A stretch of 64,000 nucleotides of DNA. Source: Mobula hypostoma (lineage: Eukaryota). Of this stretch, positions 23,351 through 54,519 are shown piece after piece; position 1 is the stretch's first letter, and every line of letters starts with the position of its first letter. The notes beneath the pieces were generated by a model. That model did no database searches and was not told the origin of the DNA. It saw only the letters and a program-made list of their open reading frames with translations. Where the stretch lies: NCBI RefSeq assembly GCF_963921235.1, contig NW_026948141.1:124001-188000 (forward strand), given 5' to 3'. The position numbers were made by a program, and so were the translations under genes.

Positions 23351-23379
23351 GGGGCTTACAAACACTGACTGGATATTCA

Positions 23380-23785
23380 GCCATAGTCAGAGTGGAGGAA
23401 CAACACCTCATATTCCAATCACAAACAAGATTTCTTATTTTCATTTTTTCTTTTCCTCTCCCCCTTCCCTCTTCTTCTATTCCTCACTCTGGCCTCTTAC
23501 CTCTTCTCCCCTGCCTATCACCACCCACTGGTGCCCTTCTTTCTTCCCTTTCTCCTTTGGTCCACTCTCCTTCTTCTCCACCCCTTCACCTTTCCCACTT
23601 TCCTGGCTGCACCTATCACCTTCTAACTTGTCCTCCTTCCCCTTGCCCCACCTTTTTATTCTGGCAGCTTCCACCTTCCTTTCTTCTAATCCTGATGAAG
23701 GGTCTCAGAATGAAACATTGACTGTTTATTCATTTCCATAGATGCTGCCTCATCCGCTGAGATTCCCCGGCATCTTGTGTGTGAA
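23380..23785 (+). mobile_element. Penelope-like 3' end (GIY-YIG C-terminal remnant, pyrimidine-rich UTR, hammerhead motif 23687-23724)
   Basis: EEQHLIF remnant, followed by CTGATGA agg gtctcag aat GAAAC ATT gactg. Confidence 0.75.
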
Positions 23786-23989
23786 ACTCAGGAAAACTGT
23801 CTCTCATTCGGGTTTAGTCTTAGACAAAAGATTTGCTGGGCACGTGACTTCTGTCTGACTGAAAATGAATCACTGACATTGAATCATTGCCATTTATAAC
23901 AGCAGTTACTTACATTCCCATGAAACCTGTAAATTGTTTCCGGCAGGTACCACACTTATCCCTGGATAATTAGGCCATTGGTTTCGGCT

Positions 23990-24770
23990 TTCCTGCAGAG
24001 ACTTGAGAGAAAACAAGCCTAGGCTCACACTCCAGTGCAGACTTAAAGGGATAGTTCATTGTTGGAGGGGCTGATTTTCTGGTGAAATGTTAATGTGAGG
24101 CCTGCTCTATACAAAATTATGAGGGATAGAGATAGGGTAAATGCAAGCAAGCTTTTTCTACTGACGTTGGATGAGACTAGAACTACAGGTCATGAGTTAA
24201 GTCTGAAAGGTGAAATATTTAATGGGAACTTGAGGGTAAACCTCTACACTCAATGGGTGGTGAGAGTGTAGAATGAGCTGCTAGCGGAAGTGGTGGATGC
24301 GGGGTCGATTTCAACATATAAGAGAAATGTAGATAGGTACATGGATGAAAGGAGTATCGAGGGCTATGGTCCAGGTGCAGGATGGGCCTAAGCAGATTAA
24401 TGGTTCAGCACGGCCTTGATGGGCCAAAGGGCCTGTTTCTGTGCTGTACTGTTCTATGATTCTATGAATTTCCTGAATGATGCATGAATCTCAAATAGCA
24501 TTTATCTCTCAAGAACTTGGTATTGACAGTTTAACATAAACAGCAGATTGAAAACTACCATTTAACTAGGTTCAGCACATGTCTATCAATGAGTGTAGAC
24601 TACTGTTGTATGATTATTTCATTTTCTTCTCTGAAGGATTTGTATCTAGCTAACACATTTCATGTCACTCTCTGAACACCTCAAAGCACTTCAAAGCAGC
24701 AAGCTTTCTTTGAAGAAGAATCATTATTGTGAAGCGGAACAGCCAATTTGTGAAGGATTCCACGCGCTGC
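23990..24770. mobile_element. Old Deu-domain SINE relics (+ ~23990-24560, split by a CR1 3' end at ~24105-24470; - ~24660-24770)
   Basis: ctaggctcacactccagtgcag...gttggagggg...gaaatgttaatgtgaggcc and ctcaaagcacttcaaagc...ctttgaag...cagccaatttg resemble the Deu-domain consensus as I recall it. Confidence 0.5.
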
Positions 24771-24949
24771 AACATGGGCATGTAATTAGTTCTAGAGTTG
24801 TACATCGATGAATAAAGTGTATGATGGGTACGACAGATTAGTTTAGTATATGAAACTACAGTATTATAGCCATTACAGAAAGGGCAGGACTGGCAGCTCA
24901 ACCACCCGGGATAAAGATTGCGCAGTTCAAAATTCAAATTAATTTATCA

Positions 24950-25330
24950 TCTTCTTTCTTTTGCTCATTACGTTGCTGGCATTTAGGGCAGCAATGGAGG
25001 CCTCCATCTCTGGTAGCATTCACGGCTTCCTTCATCGTGTCAGAAACTTTACCTTGGTTTACTGTCAGTCATGCAAGTCCCGGGTGGAGACTCAGGAATA
25101 CCATCACTCTCAGATGCAGAAGTATTCTTCATTGTTGTTTCCATAACAGATTTGTTTAACCAGTCAAGGTTGTTAGCCCTAAGCTTAAACCCCAAATCTG
25201 GAGGATCAGTGGACCACTCTTAGTCTGGCCTCTACCCTTTGACCTGTTTGGTGTGGGTGACCCTACCAAAAGCCAAAGCATAAAGCCTTGACTCCAGCAT
25301 GCAAGCCTCCAAACTACCTATGGTCCTCTT
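24950..25330 (-). mobile_element. Short non-autonomous RTE-type element
   Basis: Minus strand has the ggtagggtcaccca...gaggccagactaagagtggtcc...gggctaacaacc 5'-UTR-type block joined to a short 3' end with an (AAG)-rich tail; approximate TSD aaatt..ttatcat. Confidence 0.55.
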
Positions 25331-25574
25331 GAAGGAAATTTATTATCATGTACATATATTCTCTTCGCTGCCTCTAAGGAGTTTGTACATTCTCCCCATG
25401 ACAGTGTGGGTTTCCTCTGGGTGCTCTGGTTTCCTCCCACAGTGCAAAGACGCAACAGTTGATAGGTTAACTGATCATTGTAAATTGTCCTGTGAATAGG
25501 CGCAGATTAAATTGGGGGTTTCTGGGCGGCGCAGCTCAAAGGGCATATTCCGTGCTGTATCTCAATAAATAAAT

Positions 25575-28500
25575 ATGCCACCATATTCAGCCTGAGATCT
25601 TATTGTGGGCAATCACAGTAAATACAAAGAAACACAATAGAATCAATGAAAATCTACACACAAAGACTGACAAGCAACCAATGTGCAAAAGATGACAAAC
25701 TATGCAAATACAAAAAGAAAACAAATCATAATAATAAATAAATAAGCAATTAATGATTGGGAACATGAGATGAAGAGCCCTTGAAAGTGAATCCATAAGT
25801 TGTGGAAACAGTTCAGTGTTGAGGTGAGTGAAGTTGAGTGAAGTTCTCCCCTCTGGTTCCAGAGCCTGATGGTTGAGGGGTAATAACTGTTCTTGAACCT
25901 GGTGGAGTAGGTCCTGAGGCTCCTGAACCTTCTTCCAGATGGCAGCAAGATGAGAGTACAGCTGAATGGTGGGGTGTCTTGATGATGAATGCTGTTTTCT
26001 TGCGACAAAGCTCCTTGTAGATGTGTTCAATGGTGGGGGGTGGAGGGGAGCGGGTTTACTCAAGATGGACGGGGCTGTATCCACTACTTTTTGTAGATTT
26101 TTGGTAGTGTAGCGGTTAGTGCAATGCATCACATCACCGGCTGTTAGCTTGGGTTTCATTTCCCGTCACTATCCTGTAAGGAGTTTGGTGTTCTCCCTGT
26201 GACTGCGTGGTCTGGTTCACTCCCACATTCCAAAGACGCACAGGTTAGGGTTAGTGAATTGTGGGCATGCAGTGTTGGCACTGGAAGCGTGACGGCACTT
26301 ACAGGATGCCCCCGGCATAATTCTCTCTGATTTGATTTGGCGCGAATGATGCAATTCACTGTATGTTCCAATGTACATGTGACAAATATAGCTAATCTAG
26401 ATATTTCAAGTGTGATAGAGAGGGCTATAGGAGAGATGGGAGAACTGTCTTACTGATTAGGGAGAATGTAACATCACAAGACATAGGAGCAGAGTTGGGC
26501 CATTCGGTCCCTTGAGTCTGCTCTGCCATTCCATCATGGCTGACTTATTATCCCTCTCAACTCCATTCTCCTGCCTTCGCCCCATAACCTGTCTAATCAA
26601 GAGTCTATCAACATCCGCTTTAAATGTACTCACTAACCTGACCTTCACAAACATCCAGGGCAAAGAATTCCACAGTTTCACCACCCTCTGACTAAAGAAA
26701 TTCCTCCTCATCTCTGTTCCAAGTGGACATGCCTCTATTCTGAGGCTGTGCTGTCTGGTCCTATACTCCCTCACTATTGGAAATATCCTCTCCATGTCCA
26801 CTCAATGTCAAAGCTGCATTAAGAGAAGACATCTTGGAAGGTTCATCCTGTGACACCACGAGGATAAAATTCAGGAATGAAACAAGGACAACCATTATGA
26901 CAGTGTTGTAGTATCAGCCTCCCAACCAAGCAGGAACCAAAGGAACAGATCTCAGGCACATCATGGAAGAACAGCAAAACAATAGTAGTGGATGTTTTGA
27001 ACATTCTCAATATTGACTGGGGCACCTTTAGATGGAACAGAATTTGTTAGGTACATCCAGGAAAGTTTCTTGAAACAATGAGTAGATAGCCTAACTGGGA
27101 ATGGAGCCATACTCAACACTGTACAGGGCTAATGAGCCAGATGGATGAGATGTAGAGTATTTCAGAAACAATGACCATAATTCCATAAGCTTTAGTCAAG
27201 TCAAGTCAAGTTTATTGTCATTTAACTATATATATTCATGTATATAACATACATATATAACCATATAATGCATATAGAAATGAGACAATGTTTCTTCAAA
27301 CCAGGATGTAAATCATAGTAGTCCACATACACACAATAACCTGTGAAGGTACGGATAAAATCTACAGATGAATCACTCGTAAATAACAAACTGAAGTGCA
27401 TTAATTTTAAATATTGGAAGGCACAGAACAGATTAACCAGTACTTAGAAAATGCTGTGGTCGGAAATTCAGAAGCCTAATAGTCTGGGGGAAGAAGCTGC
27501 TTCTCATCCCGACCATTCTTGTTTTTAAACATTGGAGTTTTCTGCCTAGGCAGAATGTCAAAGAGGATGCTGGATGGATGAGTGGGATCCTTAATAAGAC
27601 TAAGGTCCCTGTGTATGCAGCACTCCTGATAAACATCCCCGAAAGATAGTAGGGAGACCCCTATGATCCTCTCAGCTGTTATCACAGTCCTTTGTAGGGA
27701 CTTCTAGTCTGTTGCTTAACTGCTCCCATATCAGATGGAGATGCAACTTGTCAGGACACTCTCATAATGCAGTTAAGATGGTGGGGGTGGGGGTGGGGGA
27801 GCCTTGCTTACCTCAATCTTCTTCAGAAATGGAGGCGCTGCTGTGCCTTCTTGTTCAGAGAGGTGATATTAAGAGACCAGGTGAGGTCATCCATGCTGTG
27901 AGCTCCCAGGAACCTGGTGTACTTAACTCTCTCAATGGAGGAGCCATGGATTTGCAGAGGGGTTGGTTTGTTTGCACCTTCCTGAAGTCCACAATAATTT
28001 CTTTTAAAATATGGATAAGGATATGACTAGTTGTCAGATGAAAGTGCTAAACTGAGGGAGGGATAATTATAAAGTCATAGAATCAGAGGGTTCAGAAACA
28101 GGCCTTTTGGCCCACCTGGTCCATGCCAGCCAAGATGTCCATGCAAGCTCGTCCTGCTTGTTTGTGTTTAGCCCATGTCCCTCAAAACCAGGGGTTCCCA
28201 AACTGGGGTCCACTGATCCCTCAGTTAATGGTAGGGGTCCATGGACCCCTCAGCTAATGGTAGGGGTCCATGCTATATAAAAAGATGTGGACAGCTGCCC
28301 TAAACCTTTTCTATTCATATACCTCTCTGAGTGCCTTTTAAAATACAATAGTATCAGCCAGGAACTGGGGAGAATAGATTGTGAGCAGCTGTTTGAGAGG
28401 AATCCACGTGTGTGAGTCTGTTAAAGGCCAGTGGGTTAGAAACATAGAAAATAGGTGCAGGAGTAGGCCATTCGGCCCTTCAAGCCTGCACCGCCATTCA

Positions 28501-29600
28501 GTATGATCATGGCTGATCATCCAACTCAGAACCCTGTACCAGCCTTCCCTCCATACCCCCTGATCCCTTTAGCCACAAGGGCCATATCTAACTCTCTCTT
28601 AAATATAGCCAATGAACTGGCCTCAACTGTTTCCTGTGGCAGAGAATTCCACAGATTCACCACTCTCTGTGTGAAGAAGTTTTTCCTCATCTCGGTCCTA
28701 AAAGGCTTCCCCTTTATCCTCAAACTGTGACCCCTCGTTCTGGACTTCCCCAACATCGGGAACAATCTTCCTGCATCTAGCCTGTCCAATCCCTTTAGAA
28801 TTTTATATGTTTCAATAAGATCCCCCCCTCAATCTTCTAAATTCCAACGAGTATAAGCCTAGCCGATCCAGTCAGAGTTAGAATACACTACCACCATATT
28901 CCTTTCGGGATTCAAAATTTCAAGATTATTTAATGTTATTTTCAGTGCGTAAGTTGAAAGGAGAATAAAATATTGTGACTCTGGATCCAATGCAGCACAA
29001 AAAAACACAGTAAGATTAGACAATAATAATAAAAACACAATAAATATGGATACACAAGATAACTTTTCTACATATTGTACAGGTATTTCCATAAAGTGAC
29101 GCTAGGCACAGGAGTGTCTGTACATAAGCGAATGATAAAGTAGTGGTGGTTGGGGATGTGGAAGGGTCAGTTAATGGGTGGAGGTGTTGATCAGCCTTAC
29201 TGCTTGGGAAAAGTAACTGTTTTTGAGTCAGGTGGTTCTGACATGGATGCTAAGTGGCTTTCTCCCTGATGGGAGTGGGCCAAACAGCCCATGTGCAGGC
29301 TAGGTGAAATCCTTCATGTTGTTATTGGCCCTTTTCTGGCACCTTACTGTAGATATGTCCTTGATGGCGGATAGGCTGGTGCCAGTGATGCGATGGACAG
29401 TTTTGGCCATCCGTTTAGAGCAATCCTGTCTGCCACAGTGCGGTTTCTGTACCATGCAGTGATGCAGCTTGTTAAGATGTTCCCTACTGTACACCTGTAG
29501 AATGACATGAATATAGATGTAGATAGTCCAGCTCTTTTCAGTCTCCTCAGAAAGTAGAGGCTTTGGTAAGCTTTCCTGTTTGTGCAGAATGTGTTCTGGG
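25575..29600 (-). mobile_element. Cluster of Rex1/Babar 3' fragments (25575-26105, 27195-28005, 28895-29600) and CR1 3' ends (26470-26805; low-divergence 28438-28872)
   Basis: LPSGRRFRSLRT.STRFKNS, IIKD.THP and RVVNLWNSLPQ motifs in the minus-strand ORFs. Confidence 0.75.
28189..28297. mobile_element. hAT (Charlie-type) MITE, 109 bp
   Basis: Starts CAGGGGTTCCCAAACTGGGG; degenerate right end ...acagctg; imperfect 8-bp TSD ctcaaaac / ccctaaac; internal ~30-bp tandem duplication. Confidence 0.6.
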
Positions 29601-29609
29601 ACCATGAGT

Positions 29610-30900
29610 AGTCAGGATAAAAGGTAAGTATGATAAGGTTCTGGGGCCTTGGGCAGCTAGAGATGTTGGAAGTTTAGTCAAAAAGAAGCATATGTGATAT
29701 TTGTAACAAGACTTTTCAGGAATATACAGCAAGTGGGAATGAACAAATAAGAAACTAGGAGGGGTAAAAGGGGCCAGGAAACATCATCAGCAAGTAGGAT
29801 TAAGGGGATGTGTATCAGGAGCAAAAGGATAGGCAAGGAAAGGGTCAGCCCAATCACAGACAAGAGAGGGAATTCATACACGGTGCTAGAGGAAGTGGAT
29901 GAAGTTCTTAATGAGTACTTCATATCAGTATTCACTAAGGAGAAGGAAATGGGTGTTGGTGAGATCAGTGAGGAATATGTTGGCATTCTCTGGCATGTCA
30001 GTATTAAGAAGGCAAATGTGTTTGGTGTCTTGAAAAAAAGCCCTGAGGTGAATATGACTCCAGACCCTTTTAGGATCCTTTTCCCAGGATCCTGAGGAAA
30101 GCAAAGGAGAAGATTGCTGGGACCTTAACAGAGATCTTTGCATCCTCTTTAGCCTCTGGAGAGTAGCCAACATTGTTCCTTTGTTTATCAAGGGCAACAG
30201 GGGCCAACGAAGAAATTATAGACTGGAATCTGAAATCAGTGAGGGGGAAATTATAGGAGAAGATTATTGGGGACAGGATTTACTAGCATTTGGAAAAGTG
30301 TGAACTTTTTGGGGAGAATCAGCAAAACGTGATAGAGCACAGCAGGAAAGAAACAGGCCCTTTGGCCATCTTGTCTATGTCTGCCTCATCCAATTGCCTT
30401 GCACCCAGACCCTCCATACTCCTCTCATCCTATCTAAATCTCTCTCAAATGTTGAAATCAAACCCGTATCCACCACTTGTGCAGCAGTTCGTTCCACATT
30501 CTCACCACCCTCCGAGTGAAGAAATTCCCCCTCATGTTCTCCTTAAACATTTCACCTTTCACCCTTAACTCATGACCTCTAGTTCTAGTTTCACCCAACC
30601 TCAGTGGAAAAAGCCTGCTTGCATTTACCCTATCTGTATCCCTCATAATTTTGAATACCTCTAACAAATCTCCCCTCACTCTTCTACATTTCAGGGAATA
30701 AAATCCTAGCCTGAAGTCCCTAAACTTAATAAGAAATGACTAAGAAGTTTGATGCGGGTGCAGCATGGGTTTTGTTCAGCACTTGGCAAGGTTCCACATG
30801 GTAGACTAAGCAGGAAGATTTATAGCACATGGAATCCATGGTGAGTTGTAAGTTGGTTCTAATTGGCATGGGTCATGAAGGAGGAGAGCTTTGGCCAGTG
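29610..30900 (+). mobile_element. Old CR1 ORF2 fragment with a nested CR1 3' end (-, ~30335-30712)
   Basis: EVLNEYFISVFTKE motif (ORF 29808-30095); nested MRGDLLEVFKIMR (ORF 30458-30679). Confidence 0.7.
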
Positions 30901-32694
30901 GAGTTCTGCAGGGATTAGTGCTGGGTTGTTTGAAGCATATATTAATAATTTGGATGAAAATGTGGTTTGTCTCTTTAGTAACATGCAAGTGAAATGAAAA
31001 TAGCACCTTAGACTGTTTACTGTTTACCTGTCTGCGTACTAAATGCATTTTGAATTATAGTTTATTAATGTATTTATGGTAATATTTTGGTTTATGTGCT
31101 GTGTGTGATATATGTTTTGTTGGTGTACCATGGGCTGCCAGAATGTTGTTTCATTTGGTTGTATATATGTACAGTCAGATGACATTAAACTTGAACTTGA
31201 TTTTGACAATGGCAGAGGGAGAAGTCAACAAGGTGGAGATCAGAGTCTACTGGTTAAACAATAGCCAGTGTCGTTTGAAATGCTTACAAACAGAAAAATA
31301 ACATTTAGATATTTGTAGTATCTTTTAAATGTTGCTTTCTTTATAGCTGAATCAATATAGAATTGTTACTCTGTGTCTCACCTGTTCTCAGTCATTAACC
31401 TGACCATTCTGATGGCTTTTTTTTTGCCAACGGTAATGAGGAAAGTGTTTCGTATTATTCAGTATGCAGCAAAAACTATCACCTTGTACATAAAAACACT
31501 GCAGCGTGGAACCTGTGCTTTAATGAACGGGGCGGGGGGAGGGGGAGAGGGGGGTGGATTATAGCTGCCCGTTAAAAATTAATCTGCAGTTTTGGCTTGA
31601 GTCACTGAACCTTTCAGTGAAGCCAAAGTCCAGGAATGATTGCATATCTGTTGAAACACTACAGGAGTGTTGTGTTGTTGCCTTTGGATTGGAGTTTCCA
31701 ATTATGATCCTGTCAGTTTATTCAGTGGATTCAAATTCACATTCACGTTCATTTATTTAAAGTTCAAAGTTTAAAGTAAATTTTATTATCAAAGTACATA
31801 CATGCCACCACATACAACCCTGGGAATCATTTTCTTGCAGGCATACTCAGCAAATCTATAGAATAGTAACTAACAGAAACAATAAAAGATCAGCTCGAGT
31901 GTAGAAGACAGCAACTGTGCAAATAAATAGCAATAAATATCAAGAACATGAGATAAAGATAAAGAATCCTTAAGGAGAGATCATTGGTTATGGGAACATC
32001 TCAATAGATGGGCAAGTGAGTGTAGTTACCCCTTTAGTTCAAGAGCCTGATGGCTGAGGGGTAGTAACTGTTCCTGAATCTGATGGTACAAGTCCTGAGC
32101 ATCTTGGATCTTCTACCTGATGGCAGCAGTGAAAAAAGAGCATGGCCTGAGTGGTGATGGATGCAACTTAACTATAATGGTGTTTCATATAGATGTGCTC
32201 AGTCATTGGGAGGGTTTATCTGTGATGTCCTGGGCCAAATCCACCACCTTTTGCAGGATTTTCCATTCAAAGGCATTGGTGTTTCCATACCAAGCCGCAA
32301 TACAGTCAGTCAATACACTCTCCACTACACATCTATAGAAATTTGTTGAAGTTTTTGATGTCATGCAGAATCTCCACAGACTCCAAAGGAAGTAGAGATG
32401 CTCCCGTGGTTTCTTTGTAATTGCACTTACATGTTGGGTCCAGGACAGTGCCTCTGAAACAGTAACACCCAGGAATTTAAAGTTGCTAATCCTCGCCACC
32501 TCTGATCCTCTGATGAAGACTGGGATATGGACCTTTGGTTTCCCATTCTTAAAGTCTATAGTCAGTTCCTTGATCTTGCTGACATTGAGTGAGAGGTTAA
32601 CACGAGGAATTCTGCAGATGCTGGAAATTCAAGCAACACACACCAAATTGCTGGTGAACGCAGCAGGCCAGGCAGCATCTCTAGGAAGAGGTAC

Positions 32695-32730
32695 AGTCGA
32701 CATTTCAGGCCGAGACCCTTCGTCAGGACT
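32695..32730 (-). ncRNA. Minimal hammerhead motif, inverted copy
   Basis: Reverse strand reads agtc CTGACGA agg-gtctcgg-cct GAAAT GTC gact: stem I intact, with a C>T change in the stem III palindrome. Confidence 0.6.
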
Positions 32731-33240
32731 AACTGAAGGAAGAGCTAGTAAGAGATTTGAAAGTGGGAGGGGGAGGGGGAGATCCAAAATGATAGGAGAA
32801 GACAGGAGGGGGAGGGATGGAGCCAAGAGCTGGACTGGTGATTAAGATGAAGCCACACTCAGGTCGGAGGAACAACACCTTATATTCCATCTGGGTAGCC
32901 TCCAACCTGATGGCATGAACATTGACTTCTCTAACTTCCGCTACTGCCCTACCTCCGCCTCGTACCCCATCCGTTATTTATTTTTATACACACATTCTTT
33001 CTCTCACTCTCCTTTTTCTCCCTCTGTTCCTCTGACTATACCCCTTGCCTATCCTCTGGGTTCCCCCCCCCTCCCTTTTCCTTCTCCCTGGGCCTCCTGT
33101 CCCATGATCCTCTCGTATCCCTTTTGCCAATCACTTGTCCAGCTCTTGGCTCCATCCCTCCCCCTCCTGTCTTCTCCTATCATTTTGGATCTCCCCTCCC
33201 CCTCTCACTTTCACATCTCTTACTCACTCTTCCTTCAGTT

Positions 33241-33276
33241 AGTCCTGACGAAGGGTCTCGGCCTGAAACGTCAACT
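33241..33276 (+). ncRNA. Minimal type I hammerhead ribozyme motif (PLE-associated)
   Basis: agtc CTGACGA agg-gtctcgg-cct GAAAC GTC aact: intact core boxes, 3-bp stem II, ACGT palindrome in place of stem III, one mismatch in stem I. Confidence 0.65.
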
Positions 33277-34904
33277 GTACCTCTTCCTAGAGATGCTGCC
33301 TGGCCTGCTGCGTTCACCAGCAACTTTGATGTGTGTTGATTGAGAGGTTGCTGTTATGACACCACTCAGTCAAATTTTCAACCTCCCTTCTGTATGCTGA
33401 TTCATCATAACCTTTGATTTGGCCCACAGCAGTGGTGCTGGAGCTGTGCTTAGCCACACAGTCATAGATGTAAAGTGAGTAGAGCAGGGGGCTAAGCACA
33501 CAGCTGGTGCACCTGTGCTGATGGAGATAGTGGAGGACACACAGTTGCCAATCCGAACAGACTAGGGACTACACGTGAGGAAATTGAGGATCAAGTTGCA
33601 CAAAGAGGTATTGAGGCCAAGGTCTCGGACCTTACTGATTAGTTTTGAGGGTATTCAATGCTGAGCTGCAATTGATAAAGAACATCCTGATGTATGCATC
33701 TTCGCTGTCCAGGTATTCCATGGTTGAGTGAAGAGCCAATGAGATGGCACCTGCTGTGAACCTGTTGCCCTGGTAGGCAAACTGGAAGAGCTGATGTTTC
33801 ATCACTTGCCTCTCAAAACACTTCAGCACTATGGATGTAAGTGCAACTGGGCCATTGCCGTTGAGGCAGGTCATCATGCTCTTCTCGGGCACCAGTGTAA
33901 TTGAAACCTGCTTGAAGCAAGTGGGTACCACACACTGCTGAAGCAAGAGGTTAAAGATACCAGTCAGCACAAGTCTTTACTACATAGCCAGGTACTCCAT
34001 CCAGTCTAGATGGTTTCCCTGGATTCACCCTCCTGAAGGCAACCACGTTTCAGTTTCAGAAACCGAGATGTGGGAGTTTGCAATGGTTCCTTCTCGTTCA
34101 GGTGGTCAAGGCGAGCAGAGCAGGCCCTGAGCTCATTTGGAAGTGAAGCCCTGCAGTCCCCCATGTCATTTGAATTAACTTTGTAGGAGGTTATAGCACT
34201 TAAACCCTGGCACAGCTGTCGAGCAACCCTTGTTGATTTCAGTTTGGTCTGGACACTCCACTTCTCATGTGAGATGGCTTTCCAGACATGATATCTGCAC
34301 CTCTTGTAGCATTCTTGGTCTCCAGACTTCAATGCCTCTAATCTGGCTCTCAGCAAATTTCAGATCTCATGGTTCATCTAGGGCTTCTGATTGGGGAAGA
34401 CTCTGAATGATTTTGTGAGGGCACGTTCATCTACAGCTGTTTTAATAAAGTCTGTTACAAGCGTGGTGTATTCATTTACATCTCTAAAAGAGTGCTTGAT
34501 CACAGCCCAGTTCACTTGCTCAAGGCAATCCTGTAATCGTTCCTCTGCCTCCTGAGACTACCTCTTAGTTGTCCTAAGCTTGTTTTTTAGGCTCTGCCTA
34601 TATACAGATAGGAGGAAGACAGTTAAGTGATCTGATTTACCAAAATGTGGCCTAGGCAAGGAATGGTAGGTATTTCTTAACTTTGTGTGGCAGTGGTTTG
34701 TGGCCTCTGGTGCTACAGGTTATATGCAGGTGATAATTAGTAGTATTTTCTTCAAACTGACTTGGTTAAAATCTCTGACTATAATTTGAAATGCATCAAG
34801 ATGGGGTGTTTTTTGTCAACAGAGGACATCATGCAGTGTCACGGGTGCTTGCTTATAGTTGGCCACTGGTGTATATAAACTGCGGTCACGATCACAGATG
34901 AGAA

Positions 34905-35815
34905 TTTAATTAACGATGAGATGGCCTACAGAGGGGTGATGGAAGAGCTTGAGGCCCGGTGTCAGGCAAATAATTACTTTCTCGATGTCAACAAGTCAAA
35001 GGAGATAGTTGTCAAGTTCAGGAGAATTCACACCACTCACACCCCTCTTTACGTTGGCAGCACAGCAGTGGGAACTGCGAGCAGTTTCAGACTCCTGGGA
35101 GTGAACATCTCGCACAACCACTCATGGTCCCAGAACACATTCTACACAATCAGGAAAGCTTATTAGCACCTCTACCCTGTTAGCAGCCTGAAGAGAGTTG
35201 GACTCTGCACACATCATTGCACATGTATATGCACACCTATACCCAGGTTATTCTACAGATGCACAGTGGAGAGCATCCTCGCATGCTGTCTCACTGCATG
35301 GTATGGAAAATGCACCGCGGTGGACAGCAAGGCTCTGCAACAGGTAGTCAAAACCACCCAGTGTATCACTGATACCAGCCTATGTGCCATCAAGGACTTA
35401 TACACAGAGAGGTGCTGGAAAAGGACCAGTACCATTACGAAGGATCCCACGCGCCCTGCTCATGGACTGTTTGTCCCATCAGGGAGGAGACTATATAGCA
35501 TCCACACCAGGACCACCAGTCAAAAACAGTTACTTACCCCAAACAGTAAGGCTGATCAACACCCCCAACCACCACTTCTTTATCATTTCCTGTCAGAGTC
35601 ACCTTGTGTACAGACACTCCTGTGACTAGCGTCACTTTATGGACATAAAATCAATCTATGTATGAAAGCTACCTTACGTATTTATATTTATTGTGTTTTT
35701 AAATTATTATTGTGTTCTTTATTTTATTGTGTTTTTGAGCAGCATTGGAGTAAAAATTATTTTGTTCTCCCTTACACTTGTGCACAGGAAATGACAAACA
35801 ATCTTGAATCTTGAT
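34905..35815 (+). mobile_element. Rex1/Babar 3' fragment
   Basis: ORFs 34921-35166 and 35266-35625 (ESILACCLTAWYG..LQQVVKT); (CTTGAAT)n tail. Confidence 0.8.
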
Positions 35816-36369
35816 TTATTAAACAATCTGAAATGTGTACACTGAGGCATACAAAGAAGTGCAACCAAAACAATGTAAGGAAGTGCTGGGGGCAGCTCGC
35901 AAGTGTCTCCACAAGTTCTGGTACCAACATATCATGCTCACAGTGCTCAGCAGAACAACACAAGCAGCAAAACAAGCCCCTTCCCACCCACTCATCACTC
36001 ACCTACATCAGTGGCCTTCAAACATGAAGTGCAGAGTGTGGAGTGTGGAGCAGACGTCTAACTCCACCACATCCCTATCCCTAAACTCTGACCTGACCCC
36101 TAACACCCTTCTCAGGCCCCAATACCATTCCTACAAACCTAAAAACCAACTAAGCATTAGCTGCAACCTCGATGGAGATCCCAGCCCAGAACCATCTTGA
36201 TCGGAAGTCAAGCCCTTGTACCTCAACGCCAATTCTAAATGAAATGAAAGAGGAAAGTCATTCTGAAGCGAGGAGAGGGAGGTTAGTTACTTCCTCGGTG
36301 CAGCCTGGACTTAAATTAGTTAAGCTGGATTCTTCGACACTATCTGAAAAAGAGCAAGATCACAGTCCT

Positions 36370-36900
36370 AAACACAGGAGATCTGCAAATACTGGAAATC
36401 CAGAGCAACACACACAAAATGCTGGAGGATCTCAGTAGGTCAGGCAGCATTTGTGGAGATGAATAAACAGTTGACATTTTGGGCTGTGACCCTTCATCAG
36501 GATGGAAAGGAAGTGGGAAGAAACCAGAATAAGAAGGTGGGGGGAGGGGAGGGGAGGGATGACAAACTAGAAGGTGATAGGTGAAGCCAGATGGATGGGG
36601 GAGGGGGATGAAGTAAGAAGCTGAGAGGTGATAGGTAGAAAATGTAAAGGGCTGGAGAAGAAGGAATCTGATTGGAGAGGAGAGTAGACCATGAGAGAAG
36701 GGGAAGGAGGAGGCACACCGGGGAAAGTGATAGGCAGGTGAGAGCCAGAGTGGCAAATTGAAGAAGAGGGATGGGGGAAGGGAAAAATAATGGAAGTTAG
36801 AGAAATTGATGTTCATGCCATCAGGTTAGAGGTTACCCAGATGGAATATGAGGTATTGCTTCTCCAACCTGAGAGTGGCCTCATCGTGGCAGAAGAGGAA
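36370..36900 (-). mobile_element. Penelope-like 3' end with decayed hammerhead motif (36469-36505)
   Basis: Minus strand encodes DEATLRLEKQYLIFHLGNL*PDGMNINFSNF; then CTGATGA agg gtcacag ccc AAAAT GTC aactg. Confidence 0.8.
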
Positions 36901-37831
36901 TTGAGATAGGAATTAAAATGGTTGGCAAGATCACAGTCTTGCTGAGAGTTCTTTCTGCACCCATGATTAGGCACAACAGTTAACCGACCATTTCTCTGTG
37001 TTGTTAGTGGGATCTCTCAATGCAGAGCAGTTGCCATTTTGGCCAAGGGTGGAAGAACTTCACAATGCTTGAGACTAGAACTAGAGGTTAAAGGTAAAAC
37101 ATGAAATATTTAAGGGGAATCTGAGGGGAAACTTCTTCACTCAGAGGGTAGTGAGTGTGTGGAACGTGCTGCCAGTAGAAGTGGTGGATGCTGGTTTAAT
37201 TGTAACATTTAAGAGAAGTTTGGGTAAGTGCATGGATCGGAAAGGTATGGAGGACATGGATGGAGAGATCTGACGGGTTTATAAGGTTATGAGAGGCATA
37301 GACAGAGTAGACACACACTGTCATTTTTCACGGTTGAAATGTCTAATACAAGAGGGCATGCATTTAAGGTGAGGGGGGTAATTTCAAAGGAGACGTGAGA
37401 GACAAATTTTCTTACACACAGAGTGGTGGGTGCCTGGAATGTGCTGCTTGGGGTGGTGGTAGAAGCAGACACATTAGAGACTTTTAAGAGCTGTTTAGAT
37501 CTAATGAATGTGATATGGACATTGTGTAGGTAGAAGAGATTAGCTTAGTTGGCCACTTAATTACTAGTCTAATTGGTTTGGCACAATATTATGGCCCGAA
37601 GAGTCTGTTCTTGTGCTGTACTGTTCTGTGTTCTATCCATGTGACAATTGATTTCTAACAAGAAACACAAGATATAGTGTTTCTGCAGAGCTCTTTGGAG
37701 GAGGCTGCTTTGGTAGGATAATAGTTTGGCATCGATTAGATGGCTGCTTTGGTAGCTAGTTGTCTGATTCATGTCGATGGGCGGGGGTGGGGTGGGGAAG
37801 GATTTTCCAACGGTGGTGATAGTAACATTTT

Positions 37832-38196
37832 TGTTAGGAAATGTAGAGGAGACTTGACCCAAAAGCAGAGCAGCAGAGACAATCCCGTTGTGAATGAAAA
37901 CTTTAATAATAAACTGCAAAATAATAGGCCACGAGGGGCCATAAAACAAGAGAGAACAGATACTAAACATAGCAAGTAACAAGGTAAACTTTAGACAGGG
38001 AGAGTGACAGCCAAGAGCAACTGATTAAGGCTGGCTGGTTTGATGAGTGGACAAGGACTATGGATGAGAGGTGGGGTTCAATAGGCTGCAGGTGATGAGT
38101 CATGAATGAGAAGCAGCTGATTCCTGTTAGCTGGGTGGAGACTAGGAGGTGCCTGCATGTGCAGGCTGGAGGTATCAGTGGAAGCCAGGCCTGACA
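37832..38196 (-). mobile_element. Probable solo LTR (Gypsy-like), 365 bp
   Basis: Termini TGTTAGG...CCTGACA (6/7 inverted match); ATTAAA poly(A)-like signal on the minus strand; no TSD found. Confidence 0.45.
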
Positions 38197-38586
38197 GTAA
38201 GGGTGGCTCTGTATATTATTTCTGTTTTTGCACAATATTTAGTCTATTCAATATATACATGTATACTGTAATTGATTTACTTATTTATTTATTTATACCT
38301 TTTTTTTCCTTCTGTATTATGTATATTGAACTGCTGCTGCTAAGTTAACAAAATTCATGACACATGTCGGTGATAATAAACCTGATTCTGATTCTAATTC
38401 TGAAAGGTGCTGTTGGCATCATTGTTTGCAATGAGCTGCAGGCATCCCACAAGCATCACCATGCTTCTGGTGCCAATGCAGCATGCCCACAACGTCTTTG
38501 GAATGTAGACGAAGCTGGAGCACCAGGAGGAAACCCACGTGGTCATGGGAGAACGTACATACCCCTTACAGACAGCACTGCCAATT

Positions 38587-39369
38587 CAATAGGTACATTT
38601 AATGTCAGAGAAATGTATACAATATACGTCCTGAAATTCTTTTTCTGTGCAAACATCCACAAAAACAGAGGACTGCCCCAAAGAATGAGTGACAGTTAAA
38701 TGTTAGAACCCCAAAGCTCCTCCCAACGCCCCCCTCCCACGCACAAGCAGCAGCAGCTAAGCAATCACCCCTCCTCCCCCACCAGCAAAAAAGTATCAGC
38801 ACACTCCACCGAGCACTCAAGTGTGCAGCAAAGCATCAATAAAGACACAGACTTGCAGTACCCTAGAGACTACTCGTTCACCCGGTATATGACATACCAC
38901 AGGCTCTCTCTCCCTCATAAGGGGAAAAGAGGTGTCACCATTTCACAGTGAGAGGGGAGACATAACAAAACAACTCGCTGATTTATGGTGTTAAGAGTCT
39001 GTTGTGTCGCTTTTTCTGAGCTCTGTGCCCAAGGAGCTCGAGTCCCTGATCTTCTGTGTACTTCCACAACACATCAGGCGACAGCACTGGCCTTGAATCA
39101 GCCCATTTCGAGAGCTATGAAAATCTGGCACCCTGAAGGCGTGCTAGTCTTCCAAGCCACGTCCTTGGCATTTTGAAAAGTGGCCGCTCCTGAGGCCCTG
39201 AGAGCGGGTCCCATTTCCACAAAGAACTGAAGTCAGCGTGTAACTCCAGGTCAGGTCTTCAAAAGAACCTTGGAAGGGGAAAAAAGAGATATCAAAGATA
39301 GAAGTAGAGCTGTTTCCAAAGATGCAAGCGAAGGAGTCGCCATTAGGCGCCATCGTCCTCCTCGGCTCT
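38587..39369 (-). mobile_element. Apparently complete ~780-bp non-autonomous retroposon inserted in a V-SINE
   Basis: Minus-strand 5' end gaggaggacGATGGCGcc; 3' end ctctgacattaaatgtacctattg shared with 22605-23166; the V-SINE host rejoins across an aatt duplication. Confidence 0.65.
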
Positions 39370-39461
39370 AATTGAACCCCGATCAGTGATTACTGGTGCT
39401 GTAAAGCGATTGCACTGACCACTATGCTAATGTGACACCCCAAAATTCAAGACTGACAGCA

Positions 39462-39537
39462 CAGAGATGCCAGGGATTGAACCCAGGTCTTGTACAAGCA
39501 AAGCATGCACTCTCCCACTGAGCTACAGTACATCCCT
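39462..39537 (-). pseudogene. tRNA-Ala(TGC)-derived pseudogene
   Basis: Reverse complement AGGGATG TA CTGTA GCTCAGTGGGAGAGT G CATGC TTTGCTT GTACA AGAC CTGGG TTCAATC CCTGG CATCTCT G aligns to vertebrate tRNA-Ala; it has a 5-nt insertion before the D arm and two mismatches in the anticodon stem. Confidence 0.75.
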
Positions 39538-39689
39538 AATGCTCTATAACTATAAAACAATAGCTGGTTGTGCATCATATCCAACAATAACAGGAGAGCA
39601 GTGTGGGAGAGTTTTTAAAGTGGAGAAGCTGTATTACTTAAGCATTTCCACATTCTTGACCTCAGAAATCCGGTTCCAGTGGTACAAGT

Positions 39690-40045
39690 AATCGTCACAT
39701 ACTGGAGTCTTTCTTAGTTGTAGTGGATGACTATGATTTCTTCTGTGCTTTGACATGCCCTTCGCTCTTCACTAAATGCTTCAGAACTGCCTTCCTGGCC
39801 ATTGGTTGTCACTGTTGACCTCATCCACCCAATCCACCAGAGCTGACATTACATGCCAGGACAGGCATGTCCCTGTCTCACCAAGGTAAGAGGCTACCAG
39901 GTTTAGCCTGCCTCTCTGTGGCTGGTTTTGCATGCAAACAATGATTTGGAACCACAGGTGAGAGCTGAGTGTCCAGTGGGGACCAAAGGTGAGCGAGCTG
40001 ACCCAGAATGGACACAACAAGCCCCTTCACCAGAGGTGCTACCAC
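39690..40045 (-). mobile_element. Probable RTE-type non-autonomous element
   Basis: GC-balanced block with ggacaggcatgtccct and gtccagtggggacc motifs resembling RTE-type UTRs; recalled similarity only. Confidence 0.35.
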
Positions 40046-41084
40046 GCTCTGGAAACTCCGTACACTCCTAGTAATCAGTAACAAAGAGAATATCCAATAT
40101 CCCAGCTGTGAAACGGGACCTTCAGATCATTGAACTTCTGAAACGAGGCCATGTGATAGTGAGCCTGTTACACAGACTGATCCCATTAGTTCCCACAAAC
40201 CTGTTACCCAGGGACCAGAAGAGACCACACCAGAGGTGCTACCCTTCTCTCAACACTCTATACTCCCACTATTAAACAATATAGGAATGATTTTCTAATT
40301 GTCTTCTCCACTGAATCCAAATGATTTTCCCCAGGTAACAGAGGGCAACATAACCTGCGGATGTTTGCTTGACTGGTATGTTTGTTCAGCCATTCCACAA
40401 GACAATAACCTTGTCAATCCTGGTCTCCTTACTCACTGGAGTGTATTAAATTGATGCAGTTAACTCTCTGAAAACCCAAGTAGCTATGTTAATTGAGTTG
40501 GAAATTTGAGCTGTGGTGTCTCGCAGACAGATGTGGCTTTGTAAATTGCAGTTTGGCACAGTGTTTTCATTACTCCAGTGTCAGAGATCACCAAGGTAAG
40601 TACAGATTAAGTAAGCTGTTCCACTTACGCACTCAGTTTCCCATCACATCTTTCAAATGCCTCTTGAGTAACTGCAAAAACTCCTTGGAGAGCAGGCTGG
40701 GAATCAATCACTCGCTCTGCGCCAGTCAGTTTTTAATCTGAACTCTTCACACTTCATTCTACCACCTCTACAGGAAGATTACTTTAATTTCCAGAGTAAC
40801 CTCTCCCACTTCTGCATACTCCACAATGTTGTACCTTTCCAAATCACAGGTGACAGAATGATTAGCTCACTAATAATCCAGGATAATAATCTAATAATCC
40901 CTCAGCACCCAGGACATGCCCTCTTCTCATTGCTATCATCAGGAAGGAGGTACAGGAGCCTGAAGACGCACACTTAACGATTCAGGAAGAGCTTCTTCCC
41001 CTGTACCATCTGAATGGACAATGAACCCGTGTACACTGCCTCTCTCTTGATGCACTACTTACTTAATTTATTATATATATATAT

Positions 41085-41775
41085 ATTATGTTATGTCTCC
41101 CTTCAAATGTGCAATGTGCAATTGTAGTAATTTATAATAAATATGTACAACAGGATAGTCAATATAACATAGAAATACAGTTGTGTCAGTGTGAATTAAT
41201 CAGTCTGATGGCCTGGTGGAAGAAGCTGTCCCGGAGCCTGTTGGTCCTGGCTTTTATGCTGCGGTACTGATTCCCGGATGGTAGCAGCTGGAACAGTTTG
41301 TGGTTGGGGTGACTTGGGTCTCCAATGATCCTTTGGGCCCTTTTTACACACCTGTCTTTGTAAATGTCCTGAATAGTGGGAAGTTCACATCTACAGATGC
41401 GCTAGGCTGTCCACACCACTCTCTGCAGAGTCCTGCGATTGAGGGAAGTACAGTTTCCATACCAGGCAGTGATGCAGCCAGTCAGGATGCTCTCAATTGT
41501 GCCCCTGTAGAAAGTTCTTAGAATCTGGGGGCCTCATACCAAACTTCTTCAACCGTCTGAGGTGAAAGAGGTGTTGTTGTGCCTTTTTCACCACACAGCC
41601 GGTATGTACAGACCGCGCGAGATCCTCGGTGATGTTTATGCCGAGGAACTTAAAGCTGTTCACCCTCTCAACCCCAGATCCATTCATGTCTATAGGGGTT
41701 AGCCTGTCTCCATTCCTCCTGTAGTCCACAACAAGCTCCTTTGTTTTTGCGACACTGAGGAAGAGGTGGTTTTCA
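41085..41775 (-). mobile_element. Low-divergence Rex1/Babar 3' fragment inserted in a (TA)n tract
   Basis: ORF 41493-41729 (VERVNSFKFLGINITEDL..KKAQQHLFHLRRLKKFG); (TA)n on both sides. Confidence 0.8.
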
Positions 41776-42814
41776 TTTTATATATATATGTAATCTCCAA
41801 TTAAGGCTAAAATTTTACAGTTTTCATCTGGTCATTCTATTTTAATCCGGGTAAAGGGTCTGATCCAAAACATTGACTGTTTATCCCCCTTCATAGATAT
41901 TGTCTGACCTGCTGAGTTCCTCCATCAGCTTGTGTATGTTGCTCTGGATTTCCAGCATTTGCAGATCTCGTGTGTTTGTTAGAAGTACTTTCCTCTGACA
42001 GTACATTATTATAGGAAGGACATGGAAGCTTTAGAGAGGACGCAGAGGAAATTTATCAGGATGCTGTCTGGATTAGAGAGCATTTTTTATGAGGAAAGGT
42101 TGAATAAACTGGGTTTTTTTCTTTTGGAGTTAAAGAAATGAGAGGTGACTTGTTAGAGGTGTACAAGATTATGGGGGCATAGATAGAGCAGAAAGCCGGA
42201 AACTTCTTCCCAGGGTGGCAAAGGCCAATGCCAGAGGACATTTCCCCAAGCAGTAAACTGATTAACACCTTCACCCCGTAACCTATTGCTTCACACCCCC
42301 CACCACCACGATTTTATCGTTCCCTGTCAGAGTCACCTTATGTACAGATGCTCCTGTGCCTAGCGGCACTTTATGGACATACAGTCAATCTGTCTATATA
42401 AGCTATCTTATGTATTTGTATTTATTGTGTTTTTTACCTTATTGTGCTTCTTTTGTGCTGCATTGGATCTGGAGTAACAATTATTTTGTTCTCCTTTACA
42501 CTTGTGCACAGTAAATTACTTTAAGCTATCTTGAATCCTGTATCTGTTTAAGGTGATTGGAGAAAAGTTCAGGGGAGATGTCAGAGGTAGTTGTTTTTTT
42601 TACATAGAGAGTGGTGGGTGTGTGAAACTCACTGCAAGGAGTGTTGGCAGAGTCTGATGTACTGGGCACATTTAAGACACTCATAGATAGGCAATTGGAT
42701 GCAGGCTAAATGGACGGTTATGGTTGTGTAGGAGGGAAGGGTTAGATGATTGTGGAGTGGGTTTATTATTATATACAATAGGTCTATGTAAACCTACTCC
42801 GCAATTAATTCACT

Positions 42815-44250
42815 TCCAGTTCAAGTTTATTGTCATCTAACTATACATGTATATAATCAAACAAAACAATGTTCCTCTGATCCATGGTGCACCCACAAAA
42901 CACATAACACACACAGCATATAAATCAATCTGTTACCGTCAATAAGTTAATAAAATATAATTCAACATGCATGTCAAGTGCACAGCACAGGTAAACAGTA
43001 GACAGCTCGGTGTCCTAGTGACAAGACCTCAAGAGTGACATTAGTCTTACAACCTGAGGGAAGAAGCTGTTACCCAGTCTGGTAGTCCTAGTCCTGATGT
43101 TCCTGTACCCCTTTCCTGATGGTAATGGGTGAAAAACGCTGTGGGATTGGTGGTGGGGATCCTCAACAATGCTTCAGGCCTTTCGTGTATAACACCCCCC
43201 CTAGTAAATGTCACAAATAGGGGGGGAGGGAGGGAGACCCCAGTGATCCTCTTAGCGAAAATCTAACCCTTACCTCTTACACAATCCATAACCCGCAAAA
43301 TTCCGGAGGAACTCAGCAGGCGCCAAACGTCGACTGTACACTTTTCCATAGATGCTGCCTGGCCTGCTGAGTCCCTCCAGCATTTTGTGTGTGTTGGTTG
43401 CATAAATTAAATTAGTGAAAAACTGAGCAAAAAATAGTGAGATCATGTTCACAGGTTCATTGTCTATTCAGAAATCTGCTGGCAGAGGGAAAGAAGCTGT
43501 CCTGAAATGTTGCGTGTGTGTGTCTTCAGGCTCCTGTACCACATTCTTGATGGTAGGAAAGAGAAGAGGGCATGTCCTGGGTGACAGAGGTCCTTAATGA
43601 TGGATGCCGCCTTTTCAAGCCATTTGAACCTGTCCTGGATGCTGGGGAGGCTAGTGCCAATGATAGAGCTAGGTGCGTGAGCCAATTCTGTGCAGTGGCC
43701 CCTCCATACCTGATGGTGATGCAACCAATTAGAATTGCTTTCCACAGTACATCTGTAGAAATTTGCGAGAGTGTTGGTGTCAAACCAAGTTTCCTCAAAC
43801 TCCTGATGTAATTTAGTCACTGTTGTGTCTAATTTTTAATTGCATCAGTATGTTGGGCCCAGGATAGATCTTCAGGGATGTTGACACCTAGGAACTTGAA
43901 ACTGCTCACCCTTTCCACTTCTGATCCCTCAAGGAGGACCGGTATGTGTTCCCTCAACTTCCCCTTCCTGAAGTTCAAAATCAATTCCTTGGTCTTACTG
44001 ATGTTGAGTGCGAGGTTATTGTTACGACACCACTCCACCAGCTGATCTATCTTGCTCCTGTACACCTCCTCGTCACCATCTGAAATTCTGCCAATAGTTG
44101 TGTTGATGGCAAATCAATGGTTGATGTTTGAGCTGTGCCTCGCCGCACAGTCATGGATGATGAGAAAGTAGAGCAGTTGTATGCATCCTTGAGGTGCGCT
44201 AGTGATGATTGTCAGTGAGGAGGAAACGTTATTTCCAATCCACACTGCTA
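42815..44250 (-). mobile_element. Rex1/Babar fragments with a mini fold-back Penelope-like remnant at ~43290-43400
   Basis: ORFs 43829-44065 (WCRNNNLALNISKTKELI) and 43464-43820. Confidence 0.75.
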
Positions 44251-49671: not shown

Positions 49672-49709
49672 TCATCTGAACAGTGAACTGATTCTGCAAC
49701 CTACAGAGG

Positions 49710-54488: not shown

Positions 54489-54519
54489 TATATATTTCTA
54501 GAATGCCTACAAGAGTTAT

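What the first reader, a model, noticed from the sequence alone, without database searches (positions are those of the whole stretch)
33241..33276. Dispersed family of minimal hammerhead ribozymes carried by Penelope-like repeats inside a host intron
Seen in sequence: at least eight copies of one motif, consensus CAGTC-CTGA(T/C)GA-AGG-GTCTCGG-CC(C/T)-GAAAC-GTC-GACTG. They lie at 2349-2385(-), 15911-15948(-), 20531-20567(-), 21753-21785(+), 23687-23724(+), 32695-32730(-), 33241-33276(+) and 36469-36505(-), with partial or heavily decayed copies at ~6416-6437, ~41845-41879 and ~43323-43337. CAGTC/GACTG forms stem I, CUGANGA and GAAA are the hammerhead core boxes, GUC is the cleavage triplet, and stem III is reduced to the palindrome ACGU. 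Three copies lie downstream of a GIY-YIG C-terminal remnant. Established: Penelope-like elements carry minimal type I hammerheads with palindromic stem III that cleave as dimers. Inference: this abundant, anonymous-looking repeat is a ribozyme-bearing PLE terminus, and the + strand copies are transcribed within the LRRC56 pre-mRNA. Every copy has at least one deviation from consensus, mostly CpG decay; 33241-33276 is closest to intact.
Basis: partly seen in the sequence, partly recalled or inferred. Interest (0 to 1): 0.7.

Follow-up and report, generated by a model that had tools for sequence, protein, structure and literature searches.

The report
Penelope hammerhead relics in ray intron
The repeated 36-base motif has the layout of the minimal hammerhead ribozyme already known from Penelope-like jumping genes and sits in the tail ends of such elements in a ray's LRRC56 intron, where every copy is mutated and the flagged copy is predicted to be locked in a long hairpin with its own inverted twin, so it is likely an inert relic.

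Summary
In detail: all 8 listed copies are at the stated places, inside the 62-kb intron 476-62501 of LRRC56 (exon 100% identical to the Mobula birostris protein). They are 3' ends of a Penelope-like retrotransposon. A GIY-YIG C-terminal remnant matches a ray RT+GIY-YIG protein at 2 sites (the third is a 39-nt trace), 4 of 12 insertions have 9-14 bp target duplications, and inverted arms and the optional tail are present. Corrections: 33241(+) and 32695(-) are two arms of one insertion, and in LRRC56-sense RNA 34 of 36 motif bases are predicted to pair with the twin arm. 33241 also has a C.A mismatch next to the cut site. Only about half of the deviations are CpG decay, and covariation in the window is not above the shuffles. 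Cleavage is untested. The scan has noted this element before, in this genome (31 notes fit 'hammerhead'; 7 of the 8 shown concern this element) and in two shark genomes. Known kind, low interest.

The parts
33240..33277 (+). Minimal type I hammerhead motif (the flagged copy): stem I 33240-33244 / 33273-33277 with a C33244.A33273 mismatch; CUGACGA 33245-33251; extra A 33252; stem II 33253-33256 / 33261-33264 (G10.1.U11.1); GAAA 33265-33268; ACGU palindrome 33268-33271; predicted cut after C33272
   Evidence: family majority is G at 33273
32844..33340 (+). Right arm of the insertion: 5'-truncated PLE 3' end (GIY-YIG C-terminus, pyrimidine-rich 3' region, hammerhead motif, end without tail)
32846..32944 (+). 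C-terminal remnant of the PLE GIY-YIG endonuclease; similarity to P0121 runs on to 33040
   Evidence: tblastn with P0121: 91% over 65 aa, E 5e-23; P0121 carries a Pfam GIY-YIG match, E 4.6e-4, below the curated cut-off
32599..32843 (-). Left arm of the same insertion: inverted, 5'-truncated terminal repeat with the ~30-nt tail; holds the motif copy 32695-32730
   Evidence: 94.4% identical to 33129-33343 over 216 columns; 13 differences in 214 columns
32590..32598 (+). 9-bp target-site duplication, left copy (TGAGAGGTT)
   Evidence: the empty site aligns without a gap to a paralogous LINE-like copy at 59837-60068, 86.6% over 232 nt
33341..33349 (+). 9-bp target-site duplication, right copy
36368..36924 (-). 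PLE 3' end with GIY-YIG remnant (36769-36900), motif copy 36469-36505 (G12>A, stem I broken) and tail; 14-bp TSD
   Evidence: (66% to P0121, E 6e-13)
2252..2379 (-). Short PLE end with decayed motif and tail, 10-bp TSD; the 5' end falls inside the CUGA box
   Evidence: empty site aligns across the join to paralogues
6313..6464 (-). Short PLE end starting inside stem II, with tail, plus an inverted 27-nt stub; 13-bp TSD
15842..16051 (-). PLE end with motif copy 15911-15948 (A15.1>U, helix III lost)
20450..20567 (-). PLE end with motif copy 20531-20567 (core boxes whole, palindrome broken: ACAU); the tail fragment 20146-20184 may be the same insertion, interrupted
21704..21850 (+). PLE end with motif copy 21753-21785 (C3>U) and a short inverted arm 21704-21751
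23379..23790 (+). Decayed PLE end with motif copy 23687-23724 (stem II broken, palindrome broken) and a 39-nt trace of the GIY-YIG end
41842..41976 (+). Heavily decayed PLE end (4 core changes) with tail
43295..43398 (+). PLE end starting at the GAAA box, with an inverted stub 43295-43321
12487..12552 (-). PLE end fragment downstream of the motif (no hammerhead), with tail
476..62501 (+). LRRC56 intron (GT..AG, 62,026 nt) that holds every copy; flanking exons 278-475 and from 62502

Best explanation
The motif is the minimal hammerhead-type sequence in the terminal repeat of a very abundant Penelope-like retrotransposon (likely Neptune clade) of rays, and the copies in this LRRC56 intron are 5'-truncated, mutated insertions that are likely inactive. 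Shown: element anatomy (GIY-YIG end, then about 300 nt, then the motif in the same sense, then two alternative 3' ends), target duplications, inverted arms, huge abundance and per-copy lesions. Inferred from other PLEs: in tandem transcripts of an intact master element, two motifs would pair through their ACGU palindromes to build a shared helix III and would cut slowly after GUC, probably with help from the element's protein; reverse transcription would start about 65-100 nt downstream of the cut site and copy the uncut motif into each new insertion. Predicted for the flagged copy: in LRRC56 pre-mRNA the antisense left arm is made first and would capture the motif in a duplex of about 215 bp, so it would not fold as a ribozyme.
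For: GIY-YIG C-terminus upstream in the same sense at 2 sites; its best relative P0121 has YIDD, a CxxxxCxxC linker and CxxC between the GIY and YIG halves, and longer relatives carry RVT_1 plus GIY-YIG (7 of 10 scanned show both). TSDs of 9-14 bp at 4 of 12 insertions against 0.2% of 2000 random pairs reaching 9; empty-site alignments for 2 of those 4. Loose ends at 33338 and a tail class at 33343, plus tandem and opposite-strand joints in public contigs; 164,503 contigs of run X1 laid on 655 nt. Min-HHR features of PMC4209133 met: extra base after A9, G at 10.1, palindromic 15.2-16.2. No copy of 10 is free of lesions. Mean pairing to the twin arm 0.95; 34 of 36 bases paired as soon as the motif is made; forcing stems I and II costs 69 kcal/mol. 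Low in vitro activity and protein dependence of PLE hammerheads (PMC4209133; PMC11167929).
Against: No cleavage data. Rfam has no match at E<=1. Stem covariation among 10 window copies is not significant (21 of 500 shuffles reach the score; 1 compensated pair). The isolated motif is predicted to fold as a rod, not a hammerhead, with z about -0.7. Most related contigs carry U, not the canonical C, at 11.1 (C is 30-38% in the DNA runs). No full-length element or RT-coding piece of this family lies in the window, and no phylogeny was built, so the clade rests on motifs of a relative.
Confidence: 0.8

Rival explanations
1. Same element, but in this family the motif is no longer (or never needs to be) catalytic: it persists as part of the RNA handle for the element's protein or as a passenger next to the reverse-transcription start.
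For: A subfamily with U at 11.1 is the majority among contigs alike to this copy. In the anole element, core mutants do not impair insertion in vitro and no RNA-seq reads end at the cut site (PMC11167929). 8 of 9 Xenopus retrozyme dimers did not cleave (bioRxiv 10.64898/2026.07.22.740005). No significant covariation here.
Against: All hammerhead boxes, the extra base and the palindrome are kept in the family majority. U11.1 still pairs with G10.1, or with the preceding A in the shifted register. The anole motif does cleave once protein is added.
Confidence: 0.12
2. One or more sense copies cleave the LRRC56 pre-mRNA (as cis dimers across the intron or in trans), acting like the conserved intronic hammerheads of amniotes.
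For: Four near-full-length copies lie on the LRRC56 sense strand; 33241 keeps all 11 core bases scored and a GUC triplet. Domesticated intronic type I hammerheads exist in amniotes (review PMC6155905).
Against: 33241 is predicted to be sequestered and has a mismatch at the pair next to the cut. Its possible sense partners are 8.6-11.5 kb away and broken. Each sense copy has antisense copies in the same intron with predicted duplexes of about -80 to -240 kcal/mol. No stable helix III for monomer activity.
Confidence: 0.04
3. The repeat is a non-autonomous derivative (non-LTR retrozyme or SINE-like unit) that moves as a short hammerhead-bearing unit, not truncated copies of a coding element.
For: Most copies are under 250 nt. 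Retrozymes derived from PLE ends are reported in vertebrates, including one chondrichthyan. Joints that go back 434-485 nt show tandem units in the family.
Against: 5' ends are ragged, not fixed; the longest copies run into the GIY-YIG coding end; no tandem array of the unit in the window; retrozymes are described with canonical type I hammerheads, PLEs with minimal ones (PMC7229834).
Confidence: 0.04

Closest known systems
Minimal type I hammerheads (min-HHR) in the pseudo-LTRs of metazoan Penelope-like elements (Cervera and De la Pena 2014, PMC4209133; parts 1-2 of 4 read; supplement file 2 searched, file 1 not searchable)
   Same: Type I layout, 4-5 bp stem I, extra base between positions 9 and 10.1, G at 10.1, no helix III beyond a palindrome, location in the terminal repeat, dispersal as single motifs on truncated copies, pairs of motifs 100-700 bp apart on opposite strands.
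   Different: Host is a mobulid ray; no shark or skate term in the searchable supplement. Stem II is 4 bp (7-8 bp in the schistosome families). Many copies carry U at 11.1. No activity data here.
Neptune-clade EN+ Penelope-like elements (defining features from passages of Craig et al. 2021, PMC8557442; structure from passages of Arkhipova et al. 2013, PMC3846280)
   Same: C-terminal GIY-YIG, CX2-5CxxC linker and CxxC between GIY and YIG in the relative P0121; 5' truncation; inverted 5'-truncated arm; 30-40 bp tail on one arm only; TSD of about 8-14 bp.
   Different: Only 3' ends are in the window; Nematis shares the linker motif and was not excluded by a tree.
PAc (Poseidon) element of Anolis carolinensis (Frangieh et al. 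2024, PMC11167929; parts 1-2 of 4 read)
   Same: Hammerhead upstream of two alternative 3' ends (end and tail) in the terminal repeat.
   Different: Poseidon clade lacks the linker Zn-finger motif; in PAc the ORF starts inside the hammerhead, which I could not show here.
Non-LTR retrozymes of animals (bioRxiv 10.64898/2026.07.22.740005, parts 1-3 of 5 read, supplements closed; PMC7229834, passages)
   Same: Type I hammerhead in a repeat related to PLE ends.
   Different: No head-to-tail array in the window; copies are continuous with coding PLE sequence.

Membership tests
Penelope-like element (EN+) | C-terminal GIY-YIG endonuclease upstream of the terminal repeat, same sense | tested here: met
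   tblastn with P0121 at 32846-33040 and 36900-36769; P0121 Pfam GIY-YIG E 4.6e-4, below cut-off; full-length relatives also hit both sites
Penelope-like element (EN+) | Telomerase-like RT in the same ORF | tested here: inconclusive
   No RT piece of this family in the window; present in the 90%-identical relative P0121 (YIDD) and in longer relatives (RVT_1)
Penelope-like element (EN+) | 5' truncation with inverted terminal arm and variable TSD | tested here: met
   Inverted arms at 4 insertions; TSD 9-14 bp at 4 of 12; empty sites for 2 of 4
Penelope-like element (EN+) | Optional 30-40 bp tail on one end | tested here: met
   Left arm extends about 30 nt past the right arm; two loose-end classes at 33338 and 33343
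Penelope-like element (EN+) | Terminal repeat contains the start of the ORF (pseudo-LTR of a partial tandem) | tested here: inconclusive
   No meaningful match between translated ends and N-termini of about 60 distant full-length relatives; tandem joints seen in contigs
Neptune clade | CX2-5CxxC linker plus CCHH motif | tested here: met
   Read in P0121, not in the window itself; a linker-like pattern in 131 of 151 relatives
Neptune clade | RT phylogeny with reference Neptune, Nematis and Poseidon elements | not testable with these tools
   No named reference PLE set was available
min-HHR of PLEs | CUGANGA and GAAA boxes, NUH triplet, type I stem I | tested here: met
   33241: all 11 core bases scored are intact, triplet GUC, 4 of 5 stem I pairs; descriptor hit
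min-HHR of PLEs | Extra nucleotide between 9 and 10.1 | tested here: met
   Bulged register pairs 92.5% of stem II cells against 70% for the unbulged one; the extra base varies A/C
min-HHR of PLEs | G10.1-C11.1 pair | tested here: inconclusive
   G-C in 4 of 10 copies, G.U in 5 including 33241, unpaired in 1; C is 22-38% of laid depth in the four runs
min-HHR of PLEs | Palindromic 15.1-16.1 segment for a dimer helix III | tested here: met
   ACGU intact in 3 of 10 copies (33241, 6416, 21753), G.U form in 2, broken in 5
min-HHR of PLEs | Compensatory changes in stems across copies | tested here: inconclusive
   1 of 10 pairs with a two-sided change; covariation 0.193, reached by 21 of 500 shuffles; only 10 decayed copies
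min-HHR of PLEs | Self-cleavage as a dimer | not testable with these tools
   Needs in vitro transcription; contigs cannot show RNA ends
Rfam hammerhead families | Covariance-model match | tested here: not met
   0 matches at E<=1 in 64 kb
Non-LTR retrozyme | Head-to-tail tandem units each with a hammerhead | tested here: not met
   No such array among the 5 tandem repeats of the window
Domesticated intronic hammerhead (RECK type) | Single, conserved, monomer-competent motif on the sense strand | tested here: not met
   High-copy, lesioned, no monomer helix III, predicted sequestration; orthologous conservation itself not tested

The most novel reading that the evidence does not exclude
The head-to-head inverted arm that Penelope insertions make is a built-in off switch: it locks the hammerhead in double-stranded RNA on both strands, and this is what lets near-intact ribozyme copies survive on the sense strand of giant elasmobranch introns. 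Genome-wide, intact sense-strand intronic copies would then be depleted unless they have an inverted twin, which would show that the motif does cut host pre-mRNAs in vivo.
Probability: 0.08. Interest if true: 0.55.

Novelty: new member of a known kind. Interest (0 to 1): 0.14.

Why it matters
It adds a ray family to a described class and is otherwise ordinary. Its one use is scale: with about 12 insertions in 62 kb, and 164,503 contigs of one run laid on a 655-nt piece, this family has enough copies for a genome-wide test of an open question, whether minimal PLE hammerheads cut RNA in vivo (strand bias in introns, rescue by inverted arms, 5' ends at the cut site). This window alone cannot answer that.

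Tried and rejected
No whole genome is held, so copy number and genome-wide covariation were not measured. Rfam: nothing. Pattern scans of viral and metagenome contigs: 0 matches each. Pfam on the short remnants themselves: no GIY-YIG hit among 5 pieces; the link came through P0121. The idea that the ORF starts at the ATG about 20 nt after the cut site: no meaningful match to N-termini of distant relatives, left open. 5' ends at the predicted cut site: none of the window's arms starts there (position 146 of the left arm; nearest start 139). Sequencing runs: no RNA holder listed; runs X5 and X16 are only guessed to be RNA and are contigs, so they say nothing on expression or RNA ends; 66 variant rows were not shown and some differences were not counted. 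The stretch laid did not include the left flank, so presence or absence of this insertion in other rays is untested. TSD search found nothing of 7 bp or more at 8 of 12 insertions. Strand bias in the intron (4 near-full sense copies against 6 antisense) is too small to read. Nearest-neighbour energies favour non-hammerhead folds even for a CpG-restored reference, so they rank copies but do not test catalysis. The paper on dimer cleavage by PLE-associated hammerheads (Lunse, Weinberg and Breaker) is not held; I saw only its citation and a summary in review PMC6765202. Searches for a printed account of this motif in elasmobranchs: Penelope+hammerhead ribozyme+shark gave 1 review where 'shark' refers to the name; Penelope+elasmobranch+transposable elements+genome gave 4 papers, one reporting PLE expansion in whale shark introns; Mobula+Penelope gave 0. 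Unseen supplements (bioRxiv 2026 tables; file 1 of PMC4209133) may list a chondrichthyan family.

Full report
1. Observation. The exact pattern occurs once and never in 100 shuffles. A descriptor of my own that asks only for the boxes and for pairing passes three sites, 33245(+), 32726(-) and 20562(-), against a mean of 0.155 and a maximum of 2 in 200 shuffles. A profile from the eight copies adds four fragments, and the whole set falls into about 12 insertions. Rfam gives no match at E<=1.

2. Host. The exon at 278-475 is 100% identical to LRRC56 of Mobula birostris (P0003). That protein maps to exons at 278-475 and from 62502, 63372 and about 63926 on the + strand, with GT at 476 and AG at 62501. 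Every copy lies in this 62,026-nt intron. No whole genome is held.

3. The carrier is a Penelope-like element. The frame at 32846 matches a Mobula hypostoma protein, P0121 (90%, E 1.5e-15). P0121 reads as the RT C-terminal half with YIDD, a CxxxxCxxC linker and a GIY-YIG domain with CxxC between its halves (Pfam GIY-YIG E 4.6e-4, under the cut-off). Seven of ten relatives scanned show both RVT_1 and GIY-YIG. By the features given in PMC8557442 (passages) this points to Neptune or Nematis, not Poseidon; I built no tree. tblastn places the endonuclease end at 32846-33040 (91%, E 5e-23) and 36900-36769 (66%, E 6e-13); the third site claimed is only a 39-nt DNA trace at 23379-23417. Four of 12 insertions have flanking direct repeats of 9, 10, 13 and 14 bp, where 0.2% of 2000 random pairs reach 9; the other eight have none of 7 or more. 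Removing the insert and one repeat restores alignment to paralogous repeats for two of the four; the other two have no paralogue in the window. In public contigs, 164,503 records of run X1 and 158,900 of run X6 lie on 655 nt, with one class of loose ends at 33338, a tail class at 33343, and tandem and opposite-strand joints (summed depth is no copy number). Truncation, an inverted arm, a one-sided tail and 8-10 bp duplications are the described PLE anatomy (PMC3846280, passages). PLE expansion in shark introns is in print (10.1101/443036, passages).

4. The flagged copy is half of one insertion. 32599-33340 is flanked by TGAGAGGTT and interrupts an older LINE-like repeat. Its left arm (32599-32843, - strand, with tail) is 94% identical to the last 215 nt of its right arm. 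So 32695(-) and 33241(+) are twins, not independent copies.

5. The motif. The extra base, G at 10.1 and the palindrome are features listed for minimal PLE hammerheads (PMC4209133, parts 1-2 read). Against this: covariation among ten copies is not above the shuffles (21 of 500 reach the score; one compensated pair), and the isolated motif is predicted to fold as a rod with z about -0.7.

6. Every copy is damaged. 33241 keeps all eleven core bases scored but has C.A at the stem I pair next to the cut; the family majority there is G (81% and 78% of laid depth in the DNA runs). It has G.U at 10.1-11.1, which is the majority among alike contigs (C 30% and 38%), so it may be a subfamily trait rather than decay. 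32695 keeps stem I but has a G.U dimer helix. The other sense copies have C3>U (21753), broken stem II and palindrome (23687) or four core changes (41845). CpG transitions are 37 of 65, 29 of 57 or 21 of 51 differences depending on the reference.

7. Predicted state in the host transcript. Folding 32580-33360 pairs the motif with the twin arm with mean probability 0.95 on + and 1.00 on -. On + the antisense arm is made first, and 34 of 36 motif bases are paired to it in transcripts ending at 33285, 33300 or 33340; forcing stems I and II costs 69 kcal/mol. Without the arm the motif still mostly pairs with flanks. These are predictions, not measurements.

8. Mechanism. Shown: anatomy, abundance, lesions. 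Inferred from other PLEs: two motifs in a tandem transcript would share helix III and cut slowly (PMC4209133; review PMC6765202, passages), probably helped by the element's protein; in the anole element cleavage needs protein, is dispensable for insertion in vitro, and reverse transcription starts at two internal sites that define the end and the tail (PMC11167929, parts 1-2 read). Because these insertions contain the whole motif, their templates were uncut at that site (inference). I give 0.80 to this reading, 0.12 to a motif that is non-catalytic even in master copies, 0.04 to cleavage of the LRRC56 pre-mRNA and 0.04 to a separate non-autonomous unit.

9. Novelty. The kind has been in print since 2014. 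Earlier notes of this scan describe the same element in this genome and in two sharks; they are unchecked AI notes and I count them as leads only. One of them suggested 5' ends at the cut site; none of this window's arms starts there. Verdict: new member of a known kind, likely inert here, interest 0.14.

Noticed in passing
window 32599-33340: The insertion is predicted to form a duplex of about 215 bp in the LRRC56 pre-mRNA, a likely A-to-I editing or small-RNA substrate. In one search the two guessed-RNA runs show more A>G sites (15, 18) than the DNA runs (10, 9), but these are other individuals and other copies.
   Followed up: partly
window 33273: The stem I-restoring G is 94-95% of laid depth in the two guessed-RNA runs against 78-81% in the DNA runs; younger copies may be over-represented there.
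   Followed up: no
window 2252-2379, 20450-20567, 21752-21850: Three of about 12 insertions begin within about 6 nt of the motif's 5' edge (stem I to CUGA box), not at the cut site; reverse transcription may stall there.
   Followed up: no
window 32846-33343 (+) and 36340-36825 (-): The GIY-YIG frame stays open through the whole 3' region and the motif in two different subfamilies, and in both it is in frame with an ATG about 20 nt after the cut site; pyrimidine-rich sequence has few stops, so this may be chance.
   Followed up: partly
window 33241, 32695, 6416 versus the other copies: Two subfamilies differ just 3' of the motif (GTACCTCTTCC-type and GTTTATTC-type) and upstream of it.
   Followed up: partly
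protein P0122: A skate neuromedin-U receptor 1 model ends in this element's GIY-YIG C-terminus: an exonised insertion or an annotation artefact.
   Followed up: no
window 47251-49679, 45910-46674, 17317-17874, 3580-5945, 8157-8486: Several decayed LINE-type RT/endonuclease copies (RVT_1 E 1.5e-25 at 48352-49281; CR1-like by recall) fill the intron.
   Followed up: partly
window 32203-32628, 33632-34359, 59718-60110, 2113-2481, 6940-7266: A second LINE-like family whose C-terminal piece scores weakly to Pfam ALKBH8_N; two of the Penelope insertions landed in it.
   Followed up: partly
window 15157-15495: Fragment that reads like a Tc1/mariner transposase N-terminus on the - strand (by recall; the + frame scanned gave no Pfam hit).
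   Followed up: no
window 46937-46950 (-): Isolated 14-nt match to the first half of the motif without family flanks (E 1.6); probably chance.
   Followed up: no
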